64,000 nt of DNA from Phycisphaerales bacterium (GTDB lineage: Bacteria; Planctomycetota; Phycisphaerae; Phycisphaerales; UBA1924), in NCBI GenBank assembly GCA_029260495.1, contig JAJDDD010000009.1:434266-498265 (forward strand), written 5' to 3'. The notes beneath the pieces are model-generated. The model saw nothing but the letters and a program-made list of their open reading frames with translations. It had not been told where the DNA came from and searched no databases. The position numbers and the translations under genes were made by a program. Every line of letters starts with the position of its first letter. Within the stretch, counting starts at the first letter, position 1. Positions 8,977 to 28,459 of the stretch are shown here, one piece after another.

Positions 8977-9971
8977 AAGCCGGCGTTATCATCATCGGAC
9001 GCAACGAAGGAGAGCGCCTCATTCGCTGTCTCGATTCACTCGCGACCGCGCGCAAGAACGGCTCGCTTCTGGTTTACGTTGACTCCGCCTCCTCAGACGA
9101 CAGTGTCGAAACATCCCAAACTCGCGTAGATCACGTCATCGCGCTCACCAATGACAAACCTCTCTCCGCAGCCCGCGCTCGCAATGCTGGCATCTCCTGG
9201 CTCCTTGACCACGACATTGACCTCATTCAGTTCATCGATGGAGACTGCGAACTCCATCCGGATTGGCTCGCCCGCGCTGCCGCAGCTCTGGAACAGAACA
9301 CACAAGCCGCGATCGTCACGGGCCGCCTGCGCGAAAAGCATCCCGATCGCTCGCCCTACAATCGCCTCTGCGATATGGAATGGGATTGCGGCGTCGGTGA
9401 GATAGAAGCGTGCGGCGGTGTATTCTTCGCCCGCGCACAGGCAATCCACGATGTCGGCGCCTTCCGCGAAGACATTCCCGCTGGTGAGGAGCCGGAACTC
9501 TGCTTGCGCCTCCGCACCGCTGGCTATACGGTTTTTGCAATTGACGCTCCCATGGCTCTGCATGACGCTGATCTCATTTCGTTTTCCCAGTGGTGGCGTC
9601 GAATGACGCGCACCGGCTATGCGTTCGCGCTCGGCGCCTCGCTTCACGGCGCCGGTCCCGAGCGACACTGGGTTCGTCACGCGCTTCGCCCCTGGCTCTG
9701 GGCCGTCATTCTTCCGTTGCTCGCGATCATCCCCGCCTGGCCAACCGCTGGACTCAGCCTCGCCGTTCTCCTCGCGTACCCAATACAGTTCCTGCGCATC
9801 ACCAAGGACCGCCAATCGCGAGGGGACTCCGCCTCGAGCGCACGCCTCTACGCCTTCTTCACCCTGCTTTCCAAGTTTCCCGAAGTCATCGGACAGACTC
9901 GTTTTTACTTCGAGCGGTTCACCGGCAGATCACCCAGCATCATCGAACACAAGAAAGCCTGCGTCGTCTGA
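8973..9971 (+). CDS. GT2 family glycosyltransferase
   Basis: ATGA overlap at 8973. MKAGVIIIGRNEGERL...VYVDSASSDDSVE GT-A N-terminus with a DxD-like FIDGDCE. C-terminal TM helices. Confidence 0.7.
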   Translation: MKAGVIIIGRNEGERLIRCLDSLATARKNGSLLVYVDSASSDDSVETSQTRVDHVIALTNDKPLSAARARNAGISWLLDHDIDLIQFIDGDCELHPDWLARAAAALEQNTQAAIVTGRLREKHPDRSPYNRLCDMEWDCGVGEIEACGGVFFARAQAIHDVGAFREDIPAGEEPELCLRLRTAGYTVFAIDAPMALHDADLISFSQWWRRMTRTGYAFALGASLHGAGPERHWVRHALRPWLWAVILPLLAIIPAWPTAGLSLAVLLAYPIQFLRITKDRQSRGDSASSARLYAFFTLLSKFPEVIGQTRFYFERFTGRSPSIIEHKKACVV

Positions 9972-14468: not shown

Positions 14469-14962
14469 GCCTATCTGTGCGAACCATTTCGAGTGCAAGC
14501 TGTTCTGTGGAGGATGCGTACAAGCGCGCGTCTGCGGAAGTGGAGCCGGTGTTTGTTCCTGCGAAGATTTATACGGACGATCGAGGGTGGTCGCTGATGA
14601 ATCAGATGCAGGGTGTGATGCGCCCTGAGGGGCAGCTCAACTACTCGGTGCAGTACCCGGGCGTCATCAAGGCGTGGCATCGGCATGCGAAGCAGACTGA
14701 TTTCTGGATGTGCATCCAGGGGCACATGAAGATGGGCGTGTATCGGGATGATGGCGCCGCGTGGATGTTGGTTTCGGGTGAAAAGAATGCAGGCGTGGTG
14801 ATCGTGCCTCCTACATTGTGGCACGGAGCAGCGACTGTGGGACCGACGAGCGCGGGGCTTCTCTACTTTGTGACGCACGCGTACGACCCGCAGGCGCCCG
14901 ATGAGGAGCGAATGCCATTTGACGAGGTTGAGGGGTTCAACTGGGGTGTTGAGTGTCGCTAG
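14465..14962 (+). CDS. Cupin-fold sugar-nucleotide isomerase/epimerase (RmlC / FdtA-WxcM C-terminal-like)
   Basis: ATGA overlap at 14465. A ~166 aa all-beta protein with KAWHRH...DFWMCIQGHMKMGVY. The family assignment is from memory only. Confidence 0.45.
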   Translation: MSLSVRTISSASCSVEDAYKRASAEVEPVFVPAKIYTDDRGWSLMNQMQGVMRPEGQLNYSVQYPGVIKAWHRHAKQTDFWMCIQGHMKMGVYRDDGAAWMLVSGEKNAGVVIVPPTLWHGAATVGPTSAGLLYFVTHAYDPQAPDEERMPFDEVEGFNWGVECR

Positions 14963-14963
14963 C

Positions 14964-15911
14964 GTGACGAAGGACGACGATGAGACGAACAGTCGCGCGA
15001 AGGAGTGCGCGGTCGTTGCGTGTGTGTTGCTCACGGGTGGATTGCGTCCGTCGCCTCTTGTGACTGCGGCGCGACGGTCGGTGTTGGATCTATTTCTCAC
15101 GCCGGAACGAACGGTATTGGGCGTGTGGCTCGATCATCTTCGGAATCTGAATCATGGATCAGCGGTTCCGTGTCGGATTGTGCATGGGGGCGATGGGCCA
15201 ATGCCTTTCGGCGCGGCGATCGGAGAGGGAGCAGCGGTCACGTTCGAGAAGGAGCATGGTCAATATCGGGGGCCAGCGGGCGCGTTGCGGGATGCTTGCG
15301 GGATGTACGGCGAAGAGGACGTGGTGTTGGTTGCTGACGGGGCGCGGTGGGTTTCGGCGTCGTTGGATGGGTTGGTGGCGGCTCATCGTTCGCATGGCGC
15401 GGATGTGACGGTTGCGGCGAATCCGGATGGCTCGCCGACTGGGGCATACCTATTGAGCCGGCGCGTAATTGACCTGACGCCGACCAAGGGATTCATGGAT
15501 TTGAAAGAGCAGTTGCTCGAGAAAGCGTTGCAGTCCGGGATGAGGATTCGAGTTCACACGCTGGACGGCGGCTCGAAGCCACTGCGAACGAGGAAGCAGT
15601 TTTTGGGGGTGTGCGCGGAAATTGGAAGGCGGGAAGAGCAACGTCCGAAAACTGCTGGAGAGTCTGCGAGGCTGGAGGGGGTGAGTTGGCGTGCTGCTGA
15701 CGGTGAGTTGGGGGCAGGCTGCGTGCTGGTGGACTCTGTGGTGATGCCGGGGGCGGTCGTGGGAGAAGGGGCGGTGGTGGCGAGAACGATCGTTTGTCCT
15801 GGGGCCCGGGTCCAGCCCGGGGCGCGTGTGGTCGATGCTGTTGTGAGCGCGGAAGGTGTAAGATCAGGAGACGAGCGGCCGGCTGTTGGCCGCTGGAAGG
15901 TTCGGTCATGA
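14964..15911 (+). CDS. Nucleotidyltransferase-fold protein with a C-terminal left-handed beta-helix (hexapeptide repeats)
   Basis: A GTG follows 1 nt after the upstream TAG. CAVVACVLLTGGLRPSPL resembles the NTP-transferase G-rich loop. C-terminal VLVDSVVMPGAVVGEGAVVARTIVCPGARVQPGARVVDAVV hexapeptides. Confidence 0.5.
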   Translation: MTKDDDETNSRAKECAVVACVLLTGGLRPSPLVTAARRSVLDLFLTPERTVLGVWLDHLRNLNHGSAVPCRIVHGGDGPMPFGAAIGEGAAVTFEKEHGQYRGPAGALRDACGMYGEEDVVLVADGARWVSASLDGLVAAHRSHGADVTVAANPDGSPTGAYLLSRRVIDLTPTKGFMDLKEQLLEKALQSGMRIRVHTLDGGSKPLRTRKQFLGVCAEIGRREEQRPKTAGESARLEGVSWRAADGELGAGCVLVDSVVMPGAVVGEGAVVARTIVCPGARVQPGARVVDAVVSAEGVRSGDERPAVGRWKVRS

Positions 15912-16774
15912 TCCAGCGTCGGGCGTGGAGATTTTCGGACGGTGTGCTGCTCGCAGCGTTGGTGGGGCTGGCGATCGTTGCGACCCGTGAGATATGGCGC
16001 GATATCTTTCGTATTGGTTGGCACAACGAAGAGCAGTCGCACATTCTGCTGGCGCCGTTGATCGCGCTGTGGTTGATGTGGGTGCGTCGGGAGCGGCTGC
16101 GATTCTGCAGGCCGTGCTGGACGTTGCTCGGGCCGTTGGTTGTTGGCGTGGGTTGGGCGCTGGCGTGGTATGGGTTTCATGGATCGACGACAGTCTTTTG
16201 GCATTTCGGGGCTCTGCTGATTGTCGCGGGGGCGGCGATTACGGTGGTGGGGGTTGAGTTTGTTCGGAACTTTGCGCCGGCGATGATTGCGTTGGTGTTC
16301 TTGATGCCGGTTCCTGGGGATATCCGCGGGGACATCGCGGTGCCATTGCAGAAGGTGACAGCGACGGTGACGCAGTTCGGGATGGAGCTTTTTGGCGTGC
16401 CGGTGACACGGGCGGGGAATCAGTTGTCTTTGAACGGGCAGGATGTCGCGGTGGCCGAGGCGTGTAATGGGATGCGCATGGTGGCGGCGCTGGTGCTGGT
16501 GAGTTTTGCGTTTGTGTTTTCGACTCCGATGCGGCAGGGGGTTCGCATATTTATTCTTGCGATTAGTCCGCTGGTTGCAATTGTGTGCAATGTGATTCGC
16601 CTGGTGCCGACGGTGTTGCTTTATGGATATTCGAGCAAGGACGCGGCGGACACATTCCATGATGTGAGCGGGTGGGCGATGCTGTTCGTTGCGCTGGGGA
16701 TTTTGTGGGGTATTTTCGGCGTTCTGCGATGGATTGAGATTCCGATTACGCCGTATGCAGTGGCGGAGGAATAG
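15908..16774 (+). CDS. Exosortase (Xrt family transpeptidase for PEP-CTERM proteins)
   Basis: ATGA overlap at 15908. 8 TM helices. VAVAEACNGMRMV carries the conserved exosortase Cys. A conserved Arg/Asn-containing segment lies downstream (NVIRLVPTV). Confidence 0.8.
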   Translation: MIQRRAWRFSDGVLLAALVGLAIVATREIWRDIFRIGWHNEEQSHILLAPLIALWLMWVRRERLRFCRPCWTLLGPLVVGVGWALAWYGFHGSTTVFWHFGALLIVAGAAITVVGVEFVRNFAPAMIALVFLMPVPGDIRGDIAVPLQKVTATVTQFGMELFGVPVTRAGNQLSLNGQDVAVAEACNGMRMVAALVLVSFAFVFSTPMRQGVRIFILAISPLVAIVCNVIRLVPTVLLYGYSSKDAADTFHDVSGWAMLFVALGILWGIFGVLRWIEIPITPYAVAEE

Positions 16775-17470
16775 ATGGGCACAAGCAGGTGGTACAACGT
16801 GTTTGGTCGGGTAGCGCCGGGGGCGAGCGCTGTGATTCTCGGAGCGGTTTTAGTTGTCGGGGGGATTGATGCGGAGTCTTTGCCGGGAGCGGGGAAGTAT
16901 CACAAGGCGGTGAAGGTGGCGATCGAGGGTGTGCCTTACCGGATTGGGCAGTGGGTGGGGACGGACGTGGACACGCCGATTGAGGCGGTCAAGCTGCTGC
17001 GGCCGAATGAGATTTTGCATCGCCGGTTTGTGAATACGACGACCAACGAGACGGTGGCGCTGCTTGTTGTGCATTGCACGGACACCAATGACATGTTGGG
17101 GCACTACCCGCCACAATGCTACCCGGCGCACGGCTGGAGACGGGAAGGCACACAGCAAACGACGCTGGAGTTTGAGGATCAGCTTTATCCAGCGACGGAG
17201 TACGAGTTCAATCGGATGGTGCAGGGGCGCGAACAGCGTATGAGCGTGTTCAGTTTTTTTGTGCTGCCTGATGGATCGATCGTGGCGGATATGAAAGGAT
17301 TGAAGAGCGCATCGGGGCGGAAGTCGGCTTCGCAGCTTGGCGCTGCTCAGGTGCAGATTGTCGGTGGAGAAGACTTGCCGGCGGAGAAGCGCAGGGAAAT
17401 CGTGCATGAGTTTGTGCGTGCGATAGAGCCGACGATCCGAGTAGTCGCGGAGGGGATCAAGAATGGATAA
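16775..17470 (+). CDS. EpsI-like exosortase-associated protein
   Basis: ATG directly after the exosortase stop. Signal-anchored ~230 aa protein in the position EpsI occupies next to XrtA. The family call rests on position and size. Confidence 0.5.
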   Translation: MGTSRWYNVFGRVAPGASAVILGAVLVVGGIDAESLPGAGKYHKAVKVAIEGVPYRIGQWVGTDVDTPIEAVKLLRPNEILHRRFVNTTTNETVALLVVHCTDTNDMLGHYPPQCYPAHGWRREGTQQTTLEFEDQLYPATEYEFNRMVQGREQRMSVFSFFVLPDGSIVADMKGLKSASGRKSASQLGAAQVQIVGGEDLPAEKRREIVHEFVRAIEPTIRVVAEGIKNG

Positions 17471-19667
17471 GTTTTTAATGAATGGCCAGGCTTCTGCGGA
17501 AGGCGGAGGCGAGGCGCCTGAAAACCTGCTGCATGTGGTGCATCGGCGGCTGCGCGGACGGTATCCGTGGGCGATTGCGCTTGGGCTGGTTCTGTCGCTG
17601 CCGTTCGCGGCGCTGGGATGGAAAGCGAAGCAGCCGGAGTTTCGGAGCACGGGTTTGGTTAATGTTGAAGATCAGGCTGAGTCGGTGCTTTTTGCAGATG
17701 TTCATACTCCGATCCGTCGGTTTGACACATTCGTGAACAAACAAGCGACGTTCCTTCGCGGGCGACGCGTAATTGACAAAGCGGTGGAGAATGAGGAGCT
17801 CCTGGATGTTGGTTGGCCACAGGGTCAGGAGGGCATTCGCCTGCTTCAAAAGAAGCTGTCGATCGGGTATGCGCGCGGGGAGTCATTGATCAGTGTCAAT
17901 GTTTCGCATCCGGACCCGACGATGGCGCGGATAGCGGTGAATGCGGTTCTGGACGCTTACAATGAGCTGTTCGGCGAGACAGGCGCGCTGCGAGCGACTG
18001 AAAAGGAACGCACGCTCCAGGAGCGCGAGCGGAAGCTCCTCAATGAAATTTCGGCGCTGCAAAGGCAGAAAATCGCCCTTTCCGAAGAGTTCGGCCAAGA
18101 CCAGCTAAGCACCATGCATGCGCGCAAGGTGGAGGAGCTCAGTGAAATTGATCGGGAAATGTCGCGCGTTGATGTCGCGATCAGCGAAGCGGAGCTACGC
18201 GATGAAGATGAGCAGAGTCGTGAGTCGCAGATCGCGAGCGTTGTTGAGACATTGTCCGAGCGTGATCCGGTGTTGAACACGTTGCAGCGTGACCTTGAAA
18301 CGCTGAGGGCTCAGTACGCGGGGCTGACAAATCTGGGCGAGAGGCATCGAACGAAGCGGCGTCTTCGCACTGAAATCGAGGTTAAACAGGCGCAACTTCA
18401 GAATCGATTTGACGAGTTGATTGAACAGGCTGGGGAGATGGGACAGTCTGAGCTTGGGACATTGCAGTTGCAGACGCCGCAACGGCTGCAGGCGTATCGC
18501 GAGCGGCTGATCGAGCGTCAGGAGGCCGTGCGCAATGACGCAAGCGAGCTGAACAAGAAACGACTTGAGCTGGACTTGATCAGCGAACAGATCGCGGAGA
18601 AAACGAAGATTCGGCTGTTGACAACCCAGCGGCTCGATCAACTTCGTGTTGAGCGCGAAAGCAGAACTGAGGGTCATGTGACCATCGCGCAGCACGGCGA
18701 CATTCCGGTGGACATCGAGGACAAGCGCAAGATGTTTGCAGCAATTGGCGCTATGTTTGGTGGCGGACTTGGCGTGGGGATCGTCTTTCTCCTTGGTCTG
18801 TTTGATAGCAGGCTGCGGTATATCGACGATCTTGAGCGAGAGGCGCTCGCCGTGCCATTGCTTGGCACGCTTCCTGATCTGGGATCGAAGAATCTTGAGC
18901 ATGATGAAATCGCGGCGCTAGCTGTGCATAATCTGCGCAATATGTTGCAGCTTCAGGCGTCTCCCGGGGACGGCAATTGCAGGGTGTATACGATCACGAG
19001 CGGTTCGCCGGGTGACGGCAAGACAAGTCTGGCGCTGGCGATGGGGATGTCGTTTGCATTGTCAGGACAAAAGACGCTGCTCCTGGACGCCGACCTGGTT
19101 GGGCATGGACTCACGCACGAGCTTGGGCATGATGGGGCGCAGGGATTGTGCCAGGCGGTGCGGGAAGAGGATGCGAAGACGCACATTCAGAGTACGACTA
19201 TTGAGAATTTGTGGACACTTCCGTGTGGCAGGCAAAATGTGATCGACGCGAAAAACCTCTCGCAGGAGATGATGCAGCATGTGATCGGGCAGTTGCGCCA
19301 GGAGTACGACACGATTATCGTGGACACGGGGCCGCTTCTTGGCAGTCTGGAGGCGAACTTGATGGCATCATTGTCCGACGGAGTCGTGCTGACGATCTCG
19401 CGTGGGCAGAACCATAAGTTTGTCAACGCCTGTCTAGAGAGGTTGCGGCAGATGAACGCGAAATGCGCGGGGCTGGTCTTCAACAAGGCGGAGGCGAGGG
19501 ATTTCAATCGGAGCGTGAGCGCTGCTTCAGTGTGTTCGCAGTCGATTCGGAATCAGTCGCTTCTGGATAAGTCTGCCAATGCGCCGGAGCGTAACGCGCG
19601 CGGCGCGTTGGTGCGGGCAGTGATCGGCGGACCTTCAGACGCCAATGAGGAAAAGCCGGCGGCGTGA
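17463..19667 (+). CDS. GumC/Wzc-like polysaccharide co-polymerase (chain-length determinant) with a C-terminal P-loop ATPase (BY-kinase-like) domain
   Basis: N-terminal TM, long coiled-coil periplasmic region and a second TM. Walker A TSGSPGDGKTS, A' LLLDADL and B IIVDTGPLL. No C-terminal tyrosine cluster. Confidence 0.75.
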   Translation: MDKFLMNGQASAEGGGEAPENLLHVVHRRLRGRYPWAIALGLVLSLPFAALGWKAKQPEFRSTGLVNVEDQAESVLFADVHTPIRRFDTFVNKQATFLRGRRVIDKAVENEELLDVGWPQGQEGIRLLQKKLSIGYARGESLISVNVSHPDPTMARIAVNAVLDAYNELFGETGALRATEKERTLQERERKLLNEISALQRQKIALSEEFGQDQLSTMHARKVEELSEIDREMSRVDVAISEAELRDEDEQSRESQIASVVETLSERDPVLNTLQRDLETLRAQYAGLTNLGERHRTKRRLRTEIEVKQAQLQNRFDELIEQAGEMGQSELGTLQLQTPQRLQAYRERLIERQEAVRNDASELNKKRLELDLISEQIAEKTKIRLLTTQRLDQLRVERESRTEGHVTIAQHGDIPVDIEDKRKMFAAIGAMFGGGLGVGIVFLLGLFDSRLRYIDDLEREALAVPLLGTLPDLGSKNLEHDEIAALAVHNLRNMLQLQASPGDGNCRVYTITSGSPGDGKTSLALAMGMSFALSGQKTLLLDADLVGHGLTHELGHDGAQGLCQAVREEDAKTHIQSTTIENLWTLPCGRQNVIDAKNLSQEMMQHVIGQLRQEYDTIIVDTGPLLGSLEANLMASLSDGVVLTISRGQNHKFVNACLERLRQMNAKCAGLVFNKAEARDFNRSVSAASVCSQSIRNQSLLDKSANAPERNARGALVRAVIGGPSDANEEKPAA

Positions 19668-21109
19668 ACTCGCTGCACGAGAGCGTGGTGATGCATCAGA
19701 GGCCGGCTGAAATTTCAGCGGATCGGTGGTCACGCGCCCATACTCGAGTGTGGGGGCTTTCCATTGAGGAAACCCATGATCGTTATTGGGCTTCCAAAGG
19801 CGTGCAGGTTGTGCGGCCTGGCGGGGCGGCGGTGATTGGCCGGGGCCCGATGCTGTACCTGCTTCTTCGGCGTGGCGAGCTGGTGCTGTTCAAATTCGCA
19901 CCTGTGGTCAAGCGGCTGAACTGGATTCGATCGCGCGCGATGCGTTTACGGATCGTTGATCTGGACGCGGACTCCTATGTTGAGCGGGTGATTGCAGATG
20001 ATGATGGCGGATTTATTGCGATTCGCAGGGACTACAGCGTCGAGACGCACGGCTCGACGCGCGCCGCGGTCACAGGCGAAGCAAAGCTTGCGCGGCAGTG
20101 GCGCGATGCGGACAACGCGCGGGAGGGATGGCGAGCGATTGTTGCGCGAGCGGGGGCGGATCGGACGAGTGTGCATCGTTGCGTGGGGCGGATATTTGAC
20201 GCTGAGGATGATGAATCGCTTGAAGAGTGTCTGACAAGCCTGATGCAGCGGTGGAAAAATCCAACGCTGGGTTTGGATGGCGTTTATGAGTTCATGCCTG
20301 GCGTTCTTTTGCATGAGTCTGCGGAAGTTGAATCTGGAGCAGTGCTGCTGCCTCCGGTGTGGATTGGAGCCGGTTCGCGCATTGGTGGACAGGCGGTGGT
20401 CGTTGGGCCAACTCTTACGCCCGATGAGCCTGATGCCCAGCCAACACAGCGGGAAGTATCGTGGGAGCGGATTCAGTATCCCGGTTGGCGTCCGACACCG
20501 AGGTTGCGCGGGCGATGGTTCCGCATGAGCAAGCGCGTGTTTGATATTGGTTTCAGCCTTGCGGTGCTCGCGGCAACGGCGCCGATCTATCCAATCGCAA
20601 TCGCGTTGATTTTTCTGGAGGATGGGTGGCCGCCCTTTTTTGCGCACAGGCGGCAGACACGGCGGGGGCGAACGTTTCCGTGCTACAAGTTTCGCACGAT
20701 GTCTCGCGGGGCGGATTCAATGAAGGAGGAACTGGAAGCGAGCAATGTCTGCGACGGGCCGCAGTTCTATATAGAGGTAGACCCGCGTGTGTCGAAGGTT
20801 GGCAAGTGGCTTCGGCGGTTTCAGATTGATGAACTACCACAGTTTTGGAATGTGTTGCGCGGGCATATGAGCGTCGTTGGGCCGCGCCCGAGCCCGGACA
20901 GTGAAAATCAGTATTGTCCTGCGTGGCGTGAGGCGAGGCTGAGCATTCGGCCTGGTGTGACGGGCCTGTGGCAGGTGCGGCGCACGCGGGAGCCTGCGAC
21001 GGATTTTCAGGAGTGGATTCGGTATGACCTTGAGTACGTTCAGCATGAGAGCTGGCGTCTGGACCTTTGGATCATTCTCAAGACGATTGGGAAGGTCATC
21101 AAGAGCTAG
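19664..21109 (+). CDS. Priming sugar-1-phosphate transferase (bacterial sugar transferase family, WbaP/EpsE-like) with an atypical ~285 aa soluble N-terminal domain
   Basis: GTGA overlap start. The C-terminal ~195 aa (RVFDIGFSLAVL...KFRTM...DELPQFWNVLRGHMSVVGPRP) is the conserved catalytic domain. The N-terminal domain has no TM helices and an LbH-like stretch. Confidence 0.8.
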   Translation: MNSLHESVVMHQRPAEISADRWSRAHTRVWGLSIEETHDRYWASKGVQVVRPGGAAVIGRGPMLYLLLRRGELVLFKFAPVVKRLNWIRSRAMRLRIVDLDADSYVERVIADDDGGFIAIRRDYSVETHGSTRAAVTGEAKLARQWRDADNAREGWRAIVARAGADRTSVHRCVGRIFDAEDDESLEECLTSLMQRWKNPTLGLDGVYEFMPGVLLHESAEVESGAVLLPPVWIGAGSRIGGQAVVVGPTLTPDEPDAQPTQREVSWERIQYPGWRPTPRLRGRWFRMSKRVFDIGFSLAVLAATAPIYPIAIALIFLEDGWPPFFAHRRQTRRGRTFPCYKFRTMSRGADSMKEELEASNVCDGPQFYIEVDPRVSKVGKWLRRFQIDELPQFWNVLRGHMSVVGPRPSPDSENQYCPAWREARLSIRPGVTGLWQVRRTREPATDFQEWIRYDLEYVQHESWRLDLWIILKTIGKVIKS

Positions 21110-21118
21110 GAACGAGCT

Positions 21119-24100
21119 ATGACGAATCGGGCGAAAAAAAGACTTTTGCTGTTGGGTGTGTCGGTTGTCATCGCGGGCGGCGGCGTGGTGGGATTGCAGC
21201 AACTGCGCAATATACAGTCTGCGCGCACACTGAAGTCGAATTTTGAAGAAGGGATGGCGGCGCACGAAGCAGGGCGTCATAAAGATGCCTCTACAAAGCT
21301 CTGGTATTATGTGACTGTCGCGCAGTCGGACGACGTGGATGGTGAAGCTCTGCTCGCGTTTGTCGAGAGTCGCCGGCAGACACCGGACGAGAACGGAAAG
21401 CATTTGCTTGAATCAATCCTGGTGGCGAAACGCGCAAGGGATTTAATGCCGAGCGACGTGCGGCCGCTTGAGCATTTGCTTGCGCTATATGGCATAACAG
21501 GGCAGTTTTCGGAACGGCTGGACGCTGCGAACCGATTGCTCGCGATTGATGACAAAAATTACGAAGGGATGAAGGCGAAGATCTCGTCATTTTGGCGATT
21601 GGGCGAGCGTGATCAAGCTCTCCAGGTTGCGCAGTCGATGGCGGAGGTGTACGAGGATGACATTTTTGCGCATTCCTTGGTCTTGCAGCTTTATGAGGAT
21701 CTCGACAAGCCAAAGCGCGAAATGCTGGATTATGCGCAAGCGGTCTCGAAGAAATACCCGGACGATGCGCGATTCACACTTCTTGTCGCGCAGGTGCACG
21801 CGGCTGCGAATGAAGATCAGAAGGCGAGGGAGATCGCGCAACAGGCTCTTGGGATGGATATTTCCGACGCGGTGACATTGCGGGAGTTGCTGCTCGTGCT
21901 CGACCGGCTCGGTATGACCGCTGAGGCGGCGGCGGTGATTGACCGAGAGACGGCGAAGGAAGGTGTGAGTGATGAGTTCTATGCGATCGCTGCGGAGCGG
22001 GCGTGGAAGGAGTCGCGCATCTCGAAGTCGCTCGAGTACATCAGGCGGGCGTCAGTTGATCCGGAGTCGGCCAAGGATAACGTCCTGGGATGGCGGGCGT
22101 TCCTTGAACAAGGAGCGACGGATGTAAGCGAGCGTGAGAGTATTGTTGAAATTCTGCGCGGGCGGGGAACTCCGGAGGCAGCGACGTGGATTTCATTGCT
22201 TCGGGCGCAGGATGCGATGGCGCAAAGCGATTGGGCGTTAGCGCAGGAGGAGCTGCGCACAGCGCAGACGACAGATGATGGAAACTCGCTCGCCATCTAC
22301 ATGATGGGTGAGACTGAGCGCCGGCTGGGCGAGTGGCGGGCCGCGATTGAGCGCTGGGGTGAGCTGCGCAAGACCGAGCCAACGTGGGTTCGCTTGCATG
22401 TTGATTTGGCCTCTGCGCTGCTCGACCATGAGTTCCCTGCTGAGGCGTACATCATCGCGGCGCGTGGGGCGCAGGTGGCGCCGAACCAGGTTGTGATGGC
22501 GCCTGTGCTCGCGCGGGCTTCTATGGAAGTGATCGAGCGCCAGATATTGACGGGAACGGAAGCTGAAACTCCGCTGGCGTTTCTTGAAGAGCTACGAGAG
22601 AAGCTTCCTCCATCGGGATTTGTACAGTCGCTTTTGGCGCGGGCGTATGCAGCTTTAGACAGGCCGGCCGAAGCGAAGGAGGCCATTGAAGTTATTTTCA
22701 AGAACGATCTTGAGGCGCCATCTGACTCGCTGGGGCCGCTCCTTGCGATGAACAAACGGTATGAATGGGGGTTTGCCGAGCAGATTCGTGCGGTGAGTCC
22801 GGAATCGCCCGCGAGTGTATTTACGCTGGCGATCGAGGCGCACCAGGCAGGTGACACGAAGGCAGGAATGCGCATGTTGCGCAATGCGGTCGAGTCGCAC
22901 GAAGGCGGCGAGCGGCTGGCGTATGAGCTTCGTCTCGCGGCGTATCAGGATCTTGTAGATGCGCCAGAGGCATTGGAGAATTTGAGCCGGATCGGCGCGG
23001 ACAACCCACAGTCAGCTGAAGCGCAGCGGCTGGTGCTCAACTCACGGGCGGCCTGGCGGGATGAAAAGATCGTCAGCTCCGCGATCGCGAGCTTGCGGAA
23101 TCTGGCTGGGAACAAGTCATCGCTCTGGCGCGTCGCGGAAGCGCGGCGACTGTTGACGTTTAGCGATCCGAACAATCCGAACGATCGGCAGGACAAGGCT
23201 GCCCGCGTCGTCAACGACGTATTGAAATCGGTCATTACGAATGATCCGCGGGCAGGGCGGGCGCATGAGCTTGCTGCTGAAGCCTGGCTTATTCTTGATG
23301 AACGCAATAACGCGATCCATCACCTGGAGCTTGCGCTCGCGGCCCAGCGCGATGCGATACGTCTGTATCCAAAGCTGATTTCACTCTTTCAGCAAGCAGG
23401 CGATGCGGAAGGCGCAAAGCGGTATCTTCAGAAGTTTTCACAGCAAACAAACATCACTCCTGAAATGCAACGACGGCGAGCTGCGCTGCTCGTTTCGCAG
23501 AACATGATTGATCCAGCGATGGATGATTTTCGCAGCCTGGCGCAGGCGGGCGACGTGAGAGCACAGGTTTCGCTGGCTGCATTGCACTCTCGCCTGGGTG
23601 AGGTCGGTCAGGCAAGAGAGATGTACGAGCAGGCGCTGAGGCATGATGACGAGTTGGCGCCTTTTGTCGCGGAAGCTGCTGCGGAGTATTTTGCTTCGCA
23701 AGGCGAGATGGATCGAGCGCGCAGCATTTTGACCGAACATCTCAAGGATGCGGGACGCGAGGGGATGCTGGCCGCGCTGCTCATGAGGCACGGTCTTGCC
23801 GGTGAAGCTGAAGATATTTACACCCGCTTGGCGCAGTCTGAAAACTCGGGGGCAGCATGGAGCGATCTTGCCCGATTCTACCTTTCACAGCGGCGCGTCG
23901 ATGAGGCAGAGCAGGCAATTAGCCAGGGGCTTGCCGTAGCGCCTGATGATGAAAATCTTATACACACAGCGAGCATGGTGTCCATGGCGGGCGGTGAGGA
24001 GATCGCAGCAGAGGGGCTCTCTGATGCGCTGACCGCGTTTGGACTCGATCCGGACAGTCGCTCGGGCATCGCGCTTCAGGAGGCGCTGGATCATATCCAG

Positions 24101-25297
24101 GCGAACCCGACGGACCTTGACGGCTACATTGACCGGCTGCGTCGACTGGTGGAGCGAGATGCGACGTTTTATCCAGCCTGGCAGATGCTTGTGCAAGCCC
24201 ATATGCGCAAGGGTGATGTTCCCTCGGCGCTGGAGGTTGCGCAGTCCGCGACTCAATCACTTCCAGCTGACCCACGTCCGGCGAAAATGGTGACCGAGCT
24301 TCTCATGCGCCAAGGGCGCACGGATCAGGCGATTGCAGCGGCGAAACTGTGGCGCGAACGCGCGCTTGCGAATCCGTACCCCACCGATCTGCTAATTGCG
24401 CAGTTGAATGACCGAATGGGTCGTTATGAGGAAGGACTTGGATGGCTGGCGCCCTACCGTGATCGGATTATTCGTGAAGGAGACACGGCGCCGACGCCTC
24501 TTGAGTTGCTCGCATCGTTGCACGCAGGAGCCGATCAAGAGGAGATTGCTCTTGAGTTGCTTTGGGATCGGGCCCAGGAAAGTCAAGCGTGGCGGGGAGG
24601 GTACCTCCGCGCCGGCTATCGCATGTTTGATCGCCCGGCCGAGGCACGGGAGTGGTTTGAGCGCGTGACGCCGCTCATGCTCAGCACAACTTCAGAACGA
24701 ATCGCGATGGGGCGGGCTTGGTATGACCTTGGCGTGCAGCATGTGACCAGAGAGGACTTCCAGCGCACGGTGGACATCGTTGAGCCGGCGCTGGATGATC
24801 CGGACGCGCGTGGGGCGGCTGCGGCGTTTTGTGCTGCGTGCTATGAGCAACTGAATCAGCCGGAAGAAGCGGAGCGGCTGTATCGGGTTGCAATCAGTGA
24901 AAATCCGGGCCAGGCGGATCTCAAAAACAATCTTGCGTTTCTGATTCTGACGCAGGGCGGCTCGCTGGAAGAGGCGTTGGCGCTCGCGACGAGCGCGACA
25001 GAATCCTCGTTGAACATCGCGACGTTCTTCGATACGAAAGGGCAGGTGCTGTTCAAACTCGGGCGGGCGGAGGAAGCTGAGACAGCGTTCCGCCAGGGGC
25101 TGGAGATTGATCCGGCGGATCCCTTGCTCCTGATCGGCCTGGCGGAAGCGTTGCATGCGCAGAAGGAGTTCGGCGAAGCGCAGCGCGTGCTTTCGCTGCT
25201 TGAAGCCATGAACAACTTTCGGTCCGGGCTGAGCGGTGATCTGACTGCTCGCTACAACAGTGTGAAGAGTCAACTTCGCGCCAGTGGGGGGGATTGA
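21119..25297 (+). CDS. Very large TPR-repeat protein (1392 aa) with an N-terminal signal anchor. PrsT-like PEP-CTERM-system TPR protein.
   Basis: AGGAA RBS. KKRLLLLGVSVVIAGGGVVGL anchor. Repetitive A/L/E/R-rich TPR-like helices throughout. Sits adjacent to the exosortase core. Confidence 0.7.
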   Translation: MTNRAKKRLLLLGVSVVIAGGGVVGLQQLRNIQSARTLKSNFEEGMAAHEAGRHKDASTKLWYYVTVAQSDDVDGEALLAFVESRRQTPDENGKHLLESILVAKRARDLMPSDVRPLEHLLALYGITGQFSERLDAANRLLAIDDKNYEGMKAKISSFWRLGERDQALQVAQSMAEVYEDDIFAHSLVLQLYEDLDKPKREMLDYAQAVSKKYPDDARFTLLVAQVHAAANEDQKAREIAQQALGMDISDAVTLRELLLVLDRLGMTAEAAAVIDRETAKEGVSDEFYAIAAERAWKESRISKSLEYIRRASVDPESAKDNVLGWRAFLEQGATDVSERESIVEILRGRGTPEAATWISLLRAQDAMAQSDWALAQEELRTAQTTDDGNSLAIYMMGETERRLGEWRAAIERWGELRKTEPTWVRLHVDLASALLDHEFPAEAYIIAARGAQVAPNQVVMAPVLARASMEVIERQILTGTEAETPLAFLEELREKLPPSGFVQSLLARAYAALDRPAEAKEAIEVIFKNDLEAPSDSLGPLLAMNKRYEWGFAEQIRAVSPESPASVFTLAIEAHQAGDTKAGMRMLRNAVESHEGGERLAYELRLAAYQDLVDAPEALENLSRIGADNPQSAEAQRLVLNSRAAWRDEKIVSSAIASLRNLAGNKSSLWRVAEARRLLTFSDPNNPNDRQDKAARVVNDVLKSVITNDPRAGRAHELAAEAWLILDERNNAIHHLELALAAQRDAIRLYPKLISLFQQAGDAEGAKRYLQKFSQQTNITPEMQRRRAALLVSQNMIDPAMDDFRSLAQAGDVRAQVSLAALHSRLGEVGQAREMYEQALRHDDELAPFVAEAAAEYFASQGEMDRARSILTEHLKDAGREGMLAALLMRHGLAGEAEDIYTRLAQSENSGAAWSDLARFYLSQRRVDEAEQAISQGLAVAPDDENLIHTASMVSMAGGEEIAAEGLSDALTAFGLDPDSRSGIALQEALDHIQANPTDLDGYIDRLRRLVERDATFYPAWQMLVQAHMRKGDVPSALEVAQSATQSLPADPRPAKMVTELLMRQGRTDQAIAAAKLWRERALANPYPTDLLIAQLNDRMGRYEEGLGWLAPYRDRIIREGDTAPTPLELLASLHAGADQEEIALELLWDRAQESQAWRGGYLRAGYRMFDRPAEAREWFERVTPLMLSTTSERIAMGRAWYDLGVQHVTREDFQRTVDIVEPALDDPDARGAAAAFCAACYEQLNQPEEAERLYRVAISENPGQADLKNNLAFLILTQGGSLEEALALATSATESSLNIATFFDTKGQVLFKLGRAEEAETAFRQGLEIDPADPLLLIGLAEALHAQKEFGEAQRVLSLLEAMNNFRSGLSGDLTARYNSVKSQLRASGGD

Positions 25298-25349
25298 AAA
25301 TGTTATTCGTGGGGCGCATTGATTGTTGCTGTGTTTTCGGAAGGAGTCG

Positions 25350-26123
25350 ATGATGAAGGGTGTCATCCTGGCGGGCGGGCTTGGAACCAGGCTGCGCCCG
25401 CTGACGCTTGTGACGAATAAGCATCTGCTGCCGATCTACGATCGGCCGATGATCTACTATCCGATTCAATGCCTGCTGAACGCGGGGATTGATGAAATCC
25501 TTCTGGTGACTGGTGGTGAGCACGCGGGAGACTTTCTCAAGCTCCTTGGCAATGGGAAATCGCTTGGCATCAAGGAACTGCACTACACCTATCAGGAAGG
25601 TGAAGGAGGCATTGCTGATGCGTTGTCGCTGGCGGAAGACTTTGCAGACGGTGGAAAGATTGTCGTAATTCTGGGTGACAACATTATCGAACGCAATATC
25701 GCGCGGGCGGCAGAGGACTTCTCCACGCAGGCAACCGGCGCCAAGATTCTGTTGAAGGAGGTCGCTGATCCTGAGCGGTTCGGCGTCGCGCGGGTTGAGG
25801 GCGAACGAGTGGTGGAGATCGTTGAAAAGCCCGAAAACCCAGCATCGCGCCTCGCGGTGACAGGCATTTATATGTACGACAACACCGTTTTTCAGATCGT
25901 TCGCGGCGTTAATCCCAGCGATCGCGGAGAGCTTGAGATAACGGACGTTAATAATGCGTATATCAAGCGAAGCGATATGACGTACGAAACGATGGCTGGC
26001 TGGTGGACGGACGCAGGGACGTTCCAGAGCCTCTACCGGGCGAATCAGATGGTCGCTGAGGGCGGAGCCAATCATATGGATGCGGCGGCGCCCAAGGCGG
26101 GGAAGGCAGCGTCGATAGCATAA
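25350..26123 (+). CDS. Glucose-1-phosphate thymidylyl/uridylyltransferase-like sugar nucleotidyltransferase (RmlA-like short form)
   Basis: GGAAGGAG RBS then ATGATG. MKGVILAGGLGTRLRPLT...KHLLPIYDRPMIYYPI is the canonical RmlA N-terminus. Confidence 0.8.
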   Translation: MMKGVILAGGLGTRLRPLTLVTNKHLLPIYDRPMIYYPIQCLLNAGIDEILLVTGGEHAGDFLKLLGNGKSLGIKELHYTYQEGEGGIADALSLAEDFADGGKIVVILGDNIIERNIARAAEDFSTQATGAKILLKEVADPERFGVARVEGERVVEIVEKPENPASRLAVTGIYMYDNTVFQIVRGVNPSDRGELEITDVNNAYIKRSDMTYETMAGWWTDAGTFQSLYRANQMVAEGGANHMDAAAPKAGKAASIA

Positions 26124-26160
26124 GCACGCGTACTTGATATCCCATAGTTATCACACTTAA

Positions 26161-26197
26161 CGGAGCTCCTCGCGATGGCGGGCGGCTCCGTTTTTTT
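26161..26197 (+). terminator. Rho-independent terminator ending the EPS operon
   Basis: CGGAGC...GCTCCG stem followed by seven T residues, 38 nt after the RmlA-like stop. Confidence 0.6.
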
Positions 26198-26570
26198 ATG
26201 CGCACAAATCCATTGGCGGGTTCTCGGACATACGAACCATGTTGGCAAGTGAAAACAATCGACTGATAACAAAGATGTTGCACAACTGCGCGCACTGGCG
26301 CTGGACGTTCACTGGGGCGCGTATATCTCTTGGGCAGCGCAGGTAAGAGAGTTGTCAACTTTATCAGAGGCCCCTGTGGGAATAGCGAATCTGGCGCGAA
26401 TATGCCGGCGCTGAATCTGCAAGAGGCTGGCGAAACGGTTGACCACTCTCAGCCCTGGTGTACTTAGAAGTAAGTGACTGACTTTCGGCGAGCGTCACCG
26501 ACTCATGCTCGCTTCATGTATTTCTGATCCCGTTTACCGGCGCTGTGTCGCCCGAGTCGGACGGGGAGCA

Positions 26571-27350
26571 ATGGAGAAGTTAGAAATGAAAAATGGGATC
26601 ATTCTTAGTGTTGGAGCGGCTGCACTGCTTGCCTCTGCGGGCGCTGCGCAGGCTGCGACCGCGAGCATCGACGGTCTTGGTGGCGAAGTTCAGATCGTGT
26701 CCGGCGTTATTGACGGCGTGTTCGGCACATCGTCGCCCGATATGTCGCCCAGCGCCCTTGCGAACATCCATGGAACGCTGATGGATGACGGCATTGAGAC
26801 GAATGGCAAGGTCACCAGCGTTTTCCTCGAAACCGATAACGGGCTCGCATGGGTCATTCTCGTTGACAAGCAACTCTTTGGCGACGACGATCGCGGTGGC
26901 CCCGCGGCGAGCCTTCTCTTCGCGAGCACAGCTGACGGCGATAAAGATCCCTTCATCAACGATGATGAAGAAATGGAAATCGCAGTGTTCGGCGGTGGAC
27001 TTCAGGCCGCCAATGGTCAGTTCAACTGGAACTCCGATGGTGAGGGCGATGGCTTCGCCTGGGCTGGTCTTGAGCCTGGTGACTTCATGACCTTCCAGTT
27101 CGAGGAAATCAAAAGCATCACCACACAGCGCGGCGGAACGGCTCCAACCTCCCCGGGTCTGGACAGCACCGATACGTTCCAGTTCGCCTCATGGACGGGC
27201 GATTCATTCGAACTGATGCCTGACATGGGCAGCTTCTCGATCGACAATCAGTTCGCTTACAGCGTGACGATTCTTCCGCTGCCGCAGCCCGCGATGCTCG
27301 GCCTGGCGGGTCTGGCCGGCCTCGGCGTGATCCGCCGTCGCAAGGCCTGA
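26571..27350 (+). CDS. Secreted PEP-CTERM domain protein (putative exosortase substrate), acidic and Asp/Gly-rich
   Basis: Signal peptide MKNGIILSVGAAALLASAGAAQA. C-terminus TILPLPQPAMLGLAGLAGLGVIRRRKA is a P-x-P motif, hydrophobic helix and Arg cluster. An alternative start is 26586. Confidence 0.75.
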   Translation: MEKLEMKNGIILSVGAAALLASAGAAQAATASIDGLGGEVQIVSGVIDGVFGTSSPDMSPSALANIHGTLMDDGIETNGKVTSVFLETDNGLAWVILVDKQLFGDDDRGGPAASLLFASTADGDKDPFINDDEEMEIAVFGGGLQAANGQFNWNSDGEGDGFAWAGLEPGDFMTFQFEEIKSITTQRGGTAPTSPGLDSTDTFQFASWTGDSFELMPDMGSFSIDNQFAYSVTILPLPQPAMLGLAGLAGLGVIRRRKA

Positions 27351-27472
27351 TATCAACAAACCAAACTTGTTGTTTGGGACACATACACGCACGGGGCCGA
27401 CGCAAGTCGACCTCGTGTTTTTTTAATCGTTCAAAGCGATGGGATCGCGGTCGCGCCTCATCTTGTGTTGGC

Positions 27473-28459
27473 TTACACGAATCGCGGCGTGATGGTTTCG
27501 ATCTTCTCGAGCGCTGCTGCGAGGTAGCGCGGGCTTCCCTCGCGATGCAAGAACGCTGGAACACATGCCGCCATGAGCACCCGGCGAATGTCTGCGAGGT
27601 CAGCGTAATCAGCGTCCAACTCGAGGCCGTTCTCTCGGCGGGCGTGCGCGATGAGCTTGACCGGCTTGAGATCGTGAAGCGATTCGGGATGACCCCAATA
27701 GATGCGCTCGAGATAGACCGCATCTTCGATCCAGTGTCCCGGATGTGTTTCTGCAAGATCAAGCAGAATACAACCTGCCGGACCCCAGGGTGAATTTTCG
27801 TCGCGGCGCATCGCATTGCCCGCGTGTACATCGCCGTGACACCACGCATTCATGGGTCGATTCAGCCAGAGGCGCAGAATATTTGGAAGAGCTTTGGCTG
27901 TCTGTTTGAGGGCTTTGCTCCATCGCTGAGCTTCAGAAATCGGATTGTCGCGGACGGCTTGGCGGGCTTGTTCAAGAAGCGATTCCCAGTCCGCGACGGG
28001 GCGGGCGACGCCCGTCGGCGCGACGGGCGTGGCGTGCTGGTGAAATCGAGCGGCGGCATCGGTGAGTTCAAGAATTACATCCTTGTGCCGATCGGTCGCC
28101 AGGGGGTCACCCGGCAGGCGCTCCATAACGAGCCAGGCGAGGTCATACCCGCCGATCTCGGTGCCCTCGGCAGCGATGCGGGGCGTAGGAGCTTTTGTCT
28201 GCGCGAGCACGGTCGTAAACCGATGTTCGCGCGGCCCGACCGGGAACTTGATCACCACTTCGCGCGGATCCGCTTCACCATCAAATGTAAACGTGGAATA
28301 GCCAGTCGCGGCGCCTCCCCTCTGCCAGTCCGCCTTGAACCAGCGAATTGGACCAAGCTGCCCCTCACAGGCATCGCGCAGCGCCGGAGCAAGAGCGTGG
28401 GCCAACTCGTGCGGCGCCGAAATCTGCGGTGACGTTCCATCCTCCGTCATCATCTTCAT
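27473..28459 (-). CDS. Aminoglycoside-phosphotransferase (APH) / protein-kinase-like fold small-molecule kinase
   Basis: CHGDVHAGNAM catalytic loop (Brenner HGD motif) and a downstream D-x-A metal-binding region. Overlaps the upstream aminotransferase stop by 4 nt. Confidence 0.7.
   Translation of the reverse strand: MKMMTEDGTSPQISAPHELAHALAPALRDACEGQLGPIRWFKADWQRGGAATGYSTFTFDGEADPREVVIKFPVGPREHRFTTVLAQTKAPTPRIAAEGTEIGGYDLAWLVMERLPGDPLATDRHKDVILELTDAAARFHQHATPVAPTGVARPVADWESLLEQARQAVRDNPISEAQRWSKALKQTAKALPNILRLWLNRPMNAWCHGDVHAGNAMRRDENSPWGPAGCILLDLAETHPGHWIEDAVYLERIYWGHPESLHDLKPVKLIAHARRENGLELDADYADLADIRRVLMAACVPAFLHREGSPRYLAAALEKIETITPRFV

What the first reader, a model, noticed from the sequence alone, without database searches (positions are those of the whole stretch)
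26571..27350. Solitary PEP-CTERM cargo, acidic and Asp/Gly-rich, with its own transcription unit
The protein has a cleavable signal peptide, a very acidic body with D-rich stretches (DDDRGGP, DGDKDPFINDDEEME, NSDGEGDGFAWAG) that look like Ca-binding or beta-roll-like segments, and a C-terminal LPQP-hydrophobic-RRRK sorting signal. It lies after the operon terminator, behind a 380-bp lower-GC spacer. That spacer holds a weak TTGACC-N16-TACTTA candidate promoter at 26440-26467. It is the only PEP-CTERM protein in 64 kb, so it is the likely dedicated substrate of this exosortase. It could be an EPS-anchored or glycosylated surface protein.
Basis: partly seen in the sequence, partly recalled or inferred. 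Interest (0 to 1): 0.6.

Follow-up and report, generated by a model that had tools for sequence, protein, structure and literature searches.

The report
Exosortase-linked acidic secreted protein, PLP tail
This is a real gene for a small, very acidic secreted protein whose C-terminal tail looks like a variant (Pro-Leu-Pro instead of Pro-Glu-Pro) of the sorting signal cut by exosortases; it sits just after an exosortase/exopolysaccharide operon and belongs to an unnamed family from Phycisphaerales bacteria, so it is an ordinary kind of gene with some unclassified details.

Summary
It encodes a 254-aa protein with a signal peptide ending in A-Q-A and a core of pI 4.05. Its tail is LPLPQP, then 14 hydrophobic residues, then RRRK. 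Strong terminator hairpins bracket the gene. It is the only such tail in the 64 kb.

The tail fails every curated sorting-signal model: PF07589 scores 15.3 against a cut-off of 20.7, TIGR02595 gives no hit, and VPLPA-CTERM scores 17 against 25.35. The Glu of PEP is missing. A profile search nevertheless finds about 140 sequence clusters of the same roughly 245-aa family. Their tails read [VI]-P-[L/A/T/S]-P, with PEP only rarely, so this is a PEP-CTERM-class signal closest to VPLPA-CTERM.

In 10 of 13 distinct lineages the gene lies within 8 kb of the 3' end of an exosortase-EpsI-kinase-transferase-TPR operon, in three different arrangements. That supports "exosortase substrate". It does not support "dedicated" substrate, because related genomes carry other PEP-CTERM ORFs and tandem paralogues.

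Verdict: a new, unmodelled member of a known kind, of modest interest.

The parts
26586..27350 (+). Gene for the 254-aa secreted acidic protein (stop codon included). An alternative, less likely start is at 26571.
   Evidence: ORF list. Identical to database protein P0001, 254 aa. Homologues align from MK.G. Scores 265 bits against the family HMM.
26586..26654 (+). Signal peptide, residues 1-23: MKNGIILSVGAAALLASAGAAQA. SPase I cleavage after A-Q-A is inferred.
   Evidence: Sequence. A21 and A23 are conserved in 83% and 88% of the family. No predictor was run.
26655..27269 (+). Acidic beta-sandwich core, residues 24-228. The conserved residues are T72, G86, L92, D94, N125, D126, W148, D155, W159, D166 and Q199, plus a family-conserved Trp that aligns with F208 of the window protein.
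   Evidence: AlphaFold2 with 84 sequences gives pLDDT 89 and pTM 0.85. No Pfam or NCBIfam model covers it.
27270..27347 (+). C-terminal sorting-signal-like tail, residues 229-254: I-L-P-L-P-Q-P, then the 14-residue hydrophobic stretch AMLGLAGLAGLGVI, then RRRKA.
   Evidence: Sequence. The model predicts a helix at 234-253. P231 is invariant and P233 is 98% conserved. The family tail consensus is [VI][IV]-P-[LATS]-P-[GAP]-A. All curated models score below threshold.
26159..26199 (+). Intrinsic-terminator-like hairpin plus U7 that ends the upstream EPS/exosortase operon after the rmlA-like gene.
   Evidence: -23.8 kcal/mol, z -3.9, 0 of 200 shuffles fold as well.
26439..26466 (+). Candidate promoter TTGACC-N16-TACTTA. 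Function is unproven.
   Evidence: Sequence. It is not called by the generic scan. A similar motif recurs upstream of orthologues at -102 to -122 in L001, L005 and L017.
26302..26327 (+). Second conserved promoter-like block, TGGACG-N14-TATATC. The CGCTGGAC 8-mer is shared by all four close orthologous spacers.
26488..26512 (+). Hairpin in the 5' leader, conserved in L003 with one compensatory pair. Its role is unknown.
   Evidence: No Rfam match.
27389..27425 (+). Intrinsic-terminator-like hairpin plus U7 after the gene, lying between it and the convergent APH-like gene.
   Evidence: z -4.25, 0 of 200 shuffles fold as well.
15794..16774 (+). Exosortase, the presumed processing enzyme. The true start is probably some tens of codons into the ORF.
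   Evidence: TIGR02602 scores 129 bits against a cut-off of 105.55. The TIGR04178 signature scores 57.6 against 23. XrtA scores 130.6, below 208. XrtD scores 115, below 400.
16775..17470 (+). EpsI-like exosortase-associated protein.
   Evidence: TIGR02914 scores 37.7 bits, E 1.4e-9, just under its cut-off of 42.8. The orthologues carry PF11984 EpsI.
17463..26123 (+). Remainder of the operon between the exosortase and the cargo gene: chain-length/tyrosine-kinase protein (17463-19667), priming sugar transferase (19664-21109), 1392-aa TPR protein with a PrsT-like C-terminus (21119-25297), and an RmlA-like nucleotidyltransferase (25323-26123).
   Evidence: The same gene order is seen in L001 and L005.

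Best explanation
The gene encodes a substrate of the exosortase pathway.

**Proposed mechanism**
1. The precursor is exported by Sec, and the signal peptide is cut after AQA.
2. The acidic beta-sandwich domain is held at the outer face of the inner membrane by the C-terminal helix, with RRRK on the cytoplasmic side.
3. The exosortase of the adjacent operon recognises the [V/I/L]-P-L-P motif at the membrane interface and removes the anchor.
4. The domain is released, or transferred to an acceptor, so that it ends up with the exopolysaccharide made by the same locus.
5. There it most likely acts as a matrix or adhesive protein that keeps the polymer bound to the cell. The experimental precedent is the small PEP-CTERM protein PepA.

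**Shown here:** the domain architecture, family membership, the exosortase in cis, and conserved linkage to that operon.

**Inferred:** Sec export, cleavage at P-x-P, the identity of the processing enzyme, the final location and the function.
For: - **Architecture.** The tail has the three-part layout defined for PEP-CTERM in PMC1569441: motif, 14 hydrophobic residues, basic cluster, at the extreme C-terminus of a protein with a signal peptide.
- **Family tails.** The family has 140 clusters at E<1e-3 and 109 at E<1e-10, almost all 230-260 aa. It keeps the tail with P231 invariant and P233 at 98%. Tails include VPLPA-like, VPAPGA and rare canonical VPEPS/APEPGS forms.
- **Weak model hits.** The only HMM hits are to PEP-CTERM-type families: EDSAP-1, VPLPA-CTERM, NF038129 and floc_PepA.
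- **Exosortase in cis.** An exosortase above the curated cut-off and an EpsI-like gene (37.7 bits, just under its 42.8 cut-off) lie in the same operon as the EPS genes.
- **Linkage.** Ten of 13 distinct lineages have the gene within 8 kb of the operon's TPR end.
  - Adjacent on the same strand: window, L001, L003, L005, L025.
  - Convergent at 1-2.5 kb: L009, L011, L026.
  - About 7 kb away: L012, L018.
- **Divergence rate.** The protein is 42-49% identical to its orthologues, like the TPR (37%) and kinase (43%) genes, while the flanking enzymes are 58-79% identical. This fits a surface-exposed protein.
- **PepA precedent.** PepA is a protein of under 29 kDa encoded next to prsT. It shifts EPS from the soluble to the bound fraction and is processed post-translationally (PMC9850573).
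Against: - The Glu of the PEP motif is absent.
- All curated sorting-signal HMMs are below threshold: PF07589 15.3 against 20.7, TIGR02595 no hit, TIGR03370 17 against 25.35.
- The exosortase fits no defined subtype, so no known enzyme-signal pairing applies.
- Three lineages carry the family gene with no exosortase locus within 5-10 kb.
- Much of the close-clade linkage could be plain synteny, since the flanking housekeeping genes are syntenic too.
- No experimental data exist for this family.
- The fold gives no functional clue.
Confidence: 0.68

Rival explanations
1. It is one general exosortase cargo among many, not the dedicated substrate of this locus. Its position next to the operon would be inherited synteny. 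The genome would hold further PEP-CTERM-class proteins elsewhere, and possibly other exosortases.
For: - PEP-CTERM proteins have a median of eight per genome and are scattered (PMC1569441).
- Unrelated PEP-CTERM ORFs sit beside the family gene in L011 (8278-8970) and L013 (9041-9817; 13274-14002 on the minus strand).
- Synteny in the close clade extends through the APH, aminotransferase, methyltransferase and Band_7 genes.
- The family gene lies away from any exosortase locus in L013, L014 and L023.
Against: Linkage survives three different arrangements and divergence down to about 35% identity. Those arrangements include direct fusion into the operon after the TPR gene, with a tandem paralogue, in L025. 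That is more than passive synteny predicts.
Confidence: 0.3
2. It is a C-terminally anchored periplasmic or inner-membrane protein that is never cleaved. The P-L-P segment would be just a helix-breaking linker before a tail anchor.
For: - All curated sorting-signal HMMs are sub-threshold, and the Glu of the PEP motif is missing.
- Cleavage has not been demonstrated.
Against: - Both prolines are essentially invariant across about 120 divergent tails, while the rest of the tail varies.
- Canonical PEP tails occur at the same position in some members.
- The gene is linked to an exosortase.
Confidence: 0.12
3. It is a calcium-binding beta-roll/RTX-like protein.
For: High Asp/Gly content and pI 4.05.
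Against: - There are no GGxGxD nonapeptide repeats in the sequence.
- The confident model is a two-sheet beta-sandwich with one helix.
- DDDRGGP is in a non-conserved loop with indels.
Confidence: 0.03

Closest known systems
PEP-CTERM / exosortase (EpsH) sorting system (TIGR02595, PF07589; Haft et al. 2006, PMC1569441)
   Same: N-terminal signal peptide. A C-terminal motif-TM(14)-basic tail. An exosortase and EpsI encoded among EPS genes in the same locus, with a PrsT-like TPR protein nearby. A core with no recognisable domain, which is typical of PEP-CTERM proteins.
   Different: The motif is P-L-P, and P-[L/A/T/S]-P across the family, rather than the near-invariant P-E-P. HMM scores are below the curated cut-offs. 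The exosortase is not XrtA by the curated cut-off. No sigma-54 or PrsK/PrsR signature was found upstream.
VPLPA-CTERM sorting domain with exosortase XrtD (TIGR03370 / TIGR04152)
   Same: The family tail consensus V-I-P-L-P-[A/G/P]-A is closest to VPLPA. Some members read exactly VPLPAP (L009, P0008, P0010, P0014). Four of 84 members hit TIGR03370 at E<0.01, best 4.6e-5. The exosortase and the EpsI protein each match parts of the XrtD model.
   Different: The window tail is LPLPQPA and scores 17 bits against a cut-off of 25.35. XrtD is a single roughly 486-aa fusion protein, whereas here the exosortase and EpsI are separate genes that score 115 and 26 bits against a cut-off of 400.
PepA, flocculation-associated PEP-CTERM protein of Zoogloea/Aquincola (NF033554; PMC9850573)
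   Same: A small (about 250 aa), single-domain, signal-peptide-bearing PEP-CTERM protein encoded beside a PrsT-type TPR gene of an exosortase/EPS system. This is the best functional analogy, as a matrix protein that keeps EPS cell-bound. Twenty of 84 family members give weak hits, some spanning 100-180 residues.
   Different: Scores are 17-23 bits against a cut-off of 80, and the window protein itself gives no hit. PepA has a VPEP motif and an RpoN-dependent promoter. Homology of the cores is unproven, because no PepA sequence was available for a profile-profile test.
EDSAP-1 family PEP-CTERM protein (NF041538)
   Same: It is the best single NCBIfam hit of the window protein, covering residues 148-258 (E 1.6e-4).
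   Different: It scores 21 bits against a cut-off of 100, and only 3 of 84 family members hit it. The protein is not a member.

Membership tests
PEP-CTERM sorting domain (TIGR02595 / PF07589) | Near-invariant Pro-Glu-Pro tripeptide at the start of the domain | tested here: not met
   The window has P231-L-P233. In the family the counts are PLP 59, PAP 29, PTP 12, PSP 7 and PEP 1 of 119 tails.
PEP-CTERM sorting domain (TIGR02595 / PF07589) | A hydrophobic stretch of about 14 residues followed by a basic cluster at the extreme C-terminus | tested here: met
   AMLGLAGLAGLGVI (14 residues) followed by RRRKA. The model predicts a helix at 234-253.
PEP-CTERM sorting domain (TIGR02595 / PF07589) | HMM score at or above the curated threshold | tested here: not met
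   PF07589 scores 15.3 against 20.7. TIGR02595 gives no hit at E<=10. Only 4 of 84 (PF07589) and 1 of 84 (TIGR02595) family members hit at E<0.01.
PEP-CTERM sorting domain (TIGR02595 / PF07589) | N-terminal signal peptide on the same protein | tested here: inconclusive
   The n-h-c layout and A-Q-A site are visible, and the A-x-A positions are conserved. No signal-peptide predictor was available.
PEP-CTERM sorting domain (TIGR02595 / PF07589) | The genome encodes an exosortase (EpsH family) | tested here: met
   ORF 15794-16774 scores 129 on TIGR02602 (cut-off 105.55) and 57.6 on TIGR04178 (cut-off 23).
PEP-CTERM sorting domain (TIGR02595 / PF07589) | Exosortase-dependent removal of the C-terminal anchor | not testable with these tools
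   This needs mass spectrometry or an exosortase mutant.
VPLPA-CTERM / XrtD | TIGR03370 at or above 25.35 bits, with a V-P-L-P-A motif | tested here: not met
   It scores 16.9-17.0 bits, and only profile positions 11-24 align. The motif here is LPLPQPA.
VPLPA-CTERM / XrtD | The partner exosortase is XrtD (TIGR04152 at or above 400 bits, fused EpsI-like domain) | tested here: not met
   The exosortase scores 115 bits and the separate EpsI gene 26.4 bits.
floc_PepA (NF033554) | Whole-protein score at or above 80 bits | tested here: not met
   The window protein gives no hit. Family members score at most about 23 bits.
RTX / beta-roll calcium-binding repeats | Tandem GGxGxDxUx nonapeptides forming a parallel beta-roll | tested here: not met
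   No such repeats are in the sequence. The predicted fold is a beta-sandwich. There are no beta-roll structural matches.

The most novel reading that the evidence does not exclude
The roughly 245-aa acidic domain would be a previously undescribed fold family. It would act as the cognate matrix protein of a distinct, so far unclassified exosortase subtype of Phycisphaerales. That subtype would recognise a Glu-less V-P-L/A-P signal, giving a new enzyme-signal-cargo triad comparable to XrtD/VPLPA-CTERM, with the cargo gene travelling with the operon.
Probability: 0.3. Interest if true: 0.45.

Novelty: new member of a known kind. Interest (0 to 1): 0.3.

Why it matters
Exosortase systems are widespread in environmental bacteria. 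Even so, almost no cargo has a known function, and for most exosortase subtypes the recognised motif is only inferred.

This locus offers a compact, testable pair: one exosortase operon and one small, monocistronic cargo gene with a Glu-less P-x-P tail. It comes from a phylum, Planctomycetota, where surface and matrix biology is poorly known.

The family, at least 140 clusters at 50% identity, has no Pfam or NCBIfam model and no structural neighbour. A family model and a structure would therefore fill an annotation gap.

None of this overturns current understanding. It extends a known system.

Tried and rejected
- **Sigma-54 promoter.** PEP-CTERM genes in Proteobacteria are RpoN-dependent. TGGCAC-N5-TTGCW with up to 2 mismatches gives 23 hits in the window against 36 expected, and none lies in the spacer.
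- **Riboswitch or known RNA in the 390-nt leader.** There is no Rfam match, even at E<=1.
- **Beta-roll.** Rejected by the sequence and by the structure prediction.
- **Structural neighbours.**
  - Foldseek PDB finds nothing at E<0.04, with TM no higher than 0.23.
  - The PDB sequence profile search finds nothing.
  - The AFDB library was not available.
- **Profile-profile test against PepA.**
  - No PepA sequence could be obtained.
  - The 20-aa peptide printed in PMC9850573 is too short for the search tool.
  - The supplement holds no sequence.
- **Extending beyond the window to count other PEP-CTERM genes.** Look-ups with the two edge proteins found no exact record. The P0001 look-up returned only a 4.4-kb contig.
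- **Second homologue search.** The profile search with the 84-sequence alignment was limited by the word index and added only P0144 and P0145.
- **Metagenome scan.** The scan with the 5-sequence alignment gave 2 loci.
- **Minus-strand ORF 27118-27849.** It overlaps the 3' end of the gene and has no support, so it was treated as spurious.

Full report
**1. What is in the sequence**

The + strand ORF 26505-27350 contains two in-frame ATGs, at 26571 and 26586. I take 26586 as the start, for three reasons.
- All homologues begin MK.G at the aligned position.
- The identical database protein P0001 is 254 aa.
- A GGAG lies 10 nt upstream of 26586, against 2 nt upstream of 26571 (read).

The product has the following features.
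- **N-terminus.** MKNGIILSVGAAALLASAGAAQA|ATAS has the layout of a signal peptide. The A-x-A positions are conserved in 83% and 88% of 84 relatives. No signal-peptide predictor was available, so cleavage is inferred.
- **Core.** Residues 24-228 have pI 4.05, with 34 Asp/Glu against 6 Lys/Arg, 28 Gly and no Cys.
- **Tail.** The last 26 residues are ILPLPQP-AMLGLAGLAGLGVI-RRRKA. That is a proline motif, exactly 14 hydrophobic residues and a basic cluster.

The gene is bracketed by two strong terminator-like hairpins with U7 tracts.
- 26159-26199 lies after the upstream rmlA-like gene (-23.8 kcal/mol, z -3.9).
- 27389-27425 lies after the gene itself (z -4.25).

The spacer between the first terminator and the start has GC 0.51-0.555, against a window mean of 0.596. 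Neither a regex scan nor a tail HMM run over all six-frame ORFs finds another such C-terminus in the 64 kb.

**2. Surroundings**

ORFs from 1141 to 26123 on the + strand form one exopolysaccharide locus. It contains:
- several GT4 and GT2 glycosyltransferases (EpsE/EpsH/EpsD/EpsU/EpsA-like) and a Wzx-type flippase;
- an exosortase at 15794-16774. It passes the general exosortase model TIGR02602 (129 bits, cut-off 105.55) and the signature TIGR04178 (57.6, cut-off 23). It fails XrtA (130.6, below 208) and XrtD (115, below 400);
- an EpsI-like gene at 16775-17470;
- a chain-length/tyrosine-kinase protein;
- a priming sugar-phosphate transferase;
- a 1392-aa TPR protein whose C-terminus matches PrsT;
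- an RmlA-like nucleotidyltransferase.

The cargo gene follows. Downstream, an APH-like kinase gene and an aminotransferase gene converge on it.

**3. Is the tail a PEP-CTERM domain?**

By the curated models it is not.
- PF07589 scores 15.3 bits against a gathering score of 20.7.
- VPLPA-CTERM (TIGR03370) scores 17 against 25.35.
- The best NCBIfam hit is the EDSAP-1 PEP-CTERM family, at 21 bits against a cut-off of 100.

The near-invariant Glu of the motif (PMC1569441) is replaced by Leu.

The comparative evidence nevertheless places the tail in the PEP-CTERM class.
- The word-indexed search found only five close relatives at 48-49% identity.
- A full HMMER profile search found 140 cluster representatives at E<1e-3, and 109 at E<1e-10, nearly all 230-260 aa.
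- Their tails align position for position. P231 is invariant and P233 is 98% conserved, and the pattern is [VI]-[IV]-P-x-P-[GAP]-A ... RRR.
- The middle residue is L in 59, A in 29, T in 12, S in 7 and E in 1 of 119 tails.
- Several members read exactly VPLPAP (L009, P0008, P0010, P0014). Many read VPAPGA. A few are canonical, such as PVPEPSTLL in P0068 and APEPGSMALL in P0136.

The window's LPLPQPA is thus a lineage variant of a VPLPA-like, Glu-less PEP-CTERM-class signal.

**4. Linkage to the exosortase**

I collected 13 distinct lineages with usable flanks.
- **Directly after the operon on the same strand:** window, L001, L003, L005 and L025. In L025 the gene follows the TPR gene with no rmlA between, and a tandem paralogue follows it.
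- **Convergent with the operon end at about 1-2.5 kb:** L009, L011 and L026. L026 again has two tandem copies.
- **About 7 kb from the operon end:** L012 and L018.
- **No exosortase-operon gene within 10 kb:** L013 and L014. L023 has none within about 5 kb.

Linkage that survives inversion and insertion, down to about 35% identity, argues for a functional tie rather than passive synteny. It is not a one-to-one tie, for three reasons.
- Unrelated PEP-CTERM ORFs lie beside the family gene in L011 and L013.
- Paralogues exist.
- PEP-CTERM genes are normally multiple and scattered, with a median of eight per genome (PMC1569441).

I could not scan the rest of this genome. "A substrate of this exosortase" is well supported. 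"The dedicated substrate" is not.

Where the sequence records name an organism, the family members come from Phycisphaerales/Phycisphaeraceae MAGs, with one bin labelled Isosphaeraceae.

**5. The core domain**

With five sequences AlphaFold2 gave pLDDT 67. With 84 it gave pLDDT 89 and pTM 0.85, and all five models scored at least 87.5. The model is an all-beta sandwich of about 12 strands with one helix (residues 55-67), followed by the C-terminal transmembrane helix (234-253).

No close relative was found by any route.
- Foldseek finds nothing at E<0.04.
- A PDB sequence profile search finds nothing.
- No Pfam or NCBIfam model covers the core.

The "beta-roll" idea is rejected. There are no GGxGxD repeats and no beta-roll matches. 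The DDDRGGP stretch sits in a variable, indel-rich loop.

The other two D-rich stretches do contain family-conserved residues: N125/D126 in F-I-N-D, and G154/D155/F157/A158/W159 in GDxFAW, plus D94 and D166. A metal or sugar site built from these is possible but untested.

Twenty of 84 members give weak hits to the flocculation protein PepA model. Some span 100-180 residues, but they score only 17-23 bits against a cut-off of 80. This is a lead, not a demonstration of homology.

**6. Transcription unit**

The two terminators support a monocistronic unit. It fails a generic sigma-70 scan, but a very similar T[TG]GAC.-N15/16-TAC[CT]T motif occurs 102-122 nt upstream of the orthologues in L001, L005 and L017.

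A second block, CGCTGGAC...TATATCT (26299-26328), is shared with L003. Its CGCTGGAC 8-mer is present in all four close spacers, which are otherwise unalignable.

A leader hairpin at 26488-26512 is conserved in L003 with one compensatory pair. There is no sigma-54 site and no Rfam family.

Which promoter is used remains open.

**7. Mechanism, comparison and verdict**

The most likely mechanism has four steps.
1. Sec export and signal-peptide cleavage.
2. Transient anchoring by the C-terminal helix.
3. Recognition of the V/I/L-P-L-P motif and removal of the anchor by the exosortase encoded in cis.
4. Association of the acidic beta-sandwich with the exopolysaccharide made by the same locus.

The functional analogy is PepA. 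This small PEP-CTERM protein is encoded next to prsT, shifts EPS from the soluble to the bound fraction, and shows post-translational processing (PMC9850573).

What is shown is the architecture, the family, the exosortase in cis and the conserved linkage. Processing, the acceptor, the final location and the function are inferred.

The protein works like a PEP-CTERM cargo. It fails two formal membership criteria, the Glu of the motif and the HMM thresholds, and it fits neither the VPLPA-CTERM/XrtD models nor PepA.

It is best described as a new, unmodelled family within the known exosortase-cargo kind. It is of modest interest and is useful mainly as a clean, testable enzyme-cargo pair in Planctomycetota.

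Noticed in passing
window 26488-26512 (+); L003 about 1456-1480: A hairpin in the 5' leader of the gene (GCGAGCGU / loop CACCGACUC / AUGCUCGC) is conserved in the orthologous leader of L003 with one compensatory A-U to G-C change. The loop sequence CCGACUC is complementary to GAGUCGG at 26555-26561, just upstream of the ribosome-binding site. There is no Rfam match.
   Followed up: partly
window 26299-26328 and 26439-26466; L001 -109, L005 -102, L017 -122, L003 -257 relative to the start codons: Two promoter-like blocks recur upstream of orthologous genes in spacers that are otherwise unalignable. They are T[TG]GAC.-N15/16-TAC[CT]T and CGCTGGAC...TATATCT. They may reflect the promoter architecture of this lineage.
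   Followed up: partly
L025 9869-11494; L026 9875-11995: Tandem paralogues of the family sit next to the exosortase operon in two metagenomic relatives. In L025 the two copies directly follow the TPR gene, with no rmlA gene in between.
   Followed up: yes
L011 8278-8970 (+); L013 9041-9817 (+) and 13274-14002 (-): Unrelated small ORFs with VPAPG-type PEP-CTERM tails lie beside the family gene in relatives. These genomes therefore carry several exosortase-type cargos.
   Followed up: partly
window 5223-6593 (+) and 9590-11020 (+): Two long ORFs inside the EPS operon (456 and 476 aa) have no NCBIfam match at E<=1e-5. They might be Wzy-type polymerase or ligase-like membrane proteins. This was not examined.
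   Followed up: no
window 14901-15911 (+) and 15794-16774 (+): The ORF upstream of the exosortase overlaps the listed exosortase ORF by about 118 nt. The exosortase model matches begin at residue 51 or later, so the real exosortase start is probably further downstream than 15794.
   Followed up: no
window 21119-25297 (+): The 1392-aa TPR protein has only its C-terminal ~120 residues as its best-scoring match to PrsT. It is conserved in size (1395-1412 aa) but only 26-37% identical across relatives, which makes it unusually large for a PrsT-type protein.
   Followed up: no
window 44960-45032 (-): tRNA-Gln (anticodon CTG). It is the only RNA gene found in the window, by Rfam at gathering threshold and by ARAGORN.
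   Followed up: yes
window 27118-27849 (-): A 243-aa minus-strand ORF overlaps the 3' end of the cargo gene and the APH-like gene. No homology or context supports it, so it is probably an artefact of high GC content.
   Followed up: no
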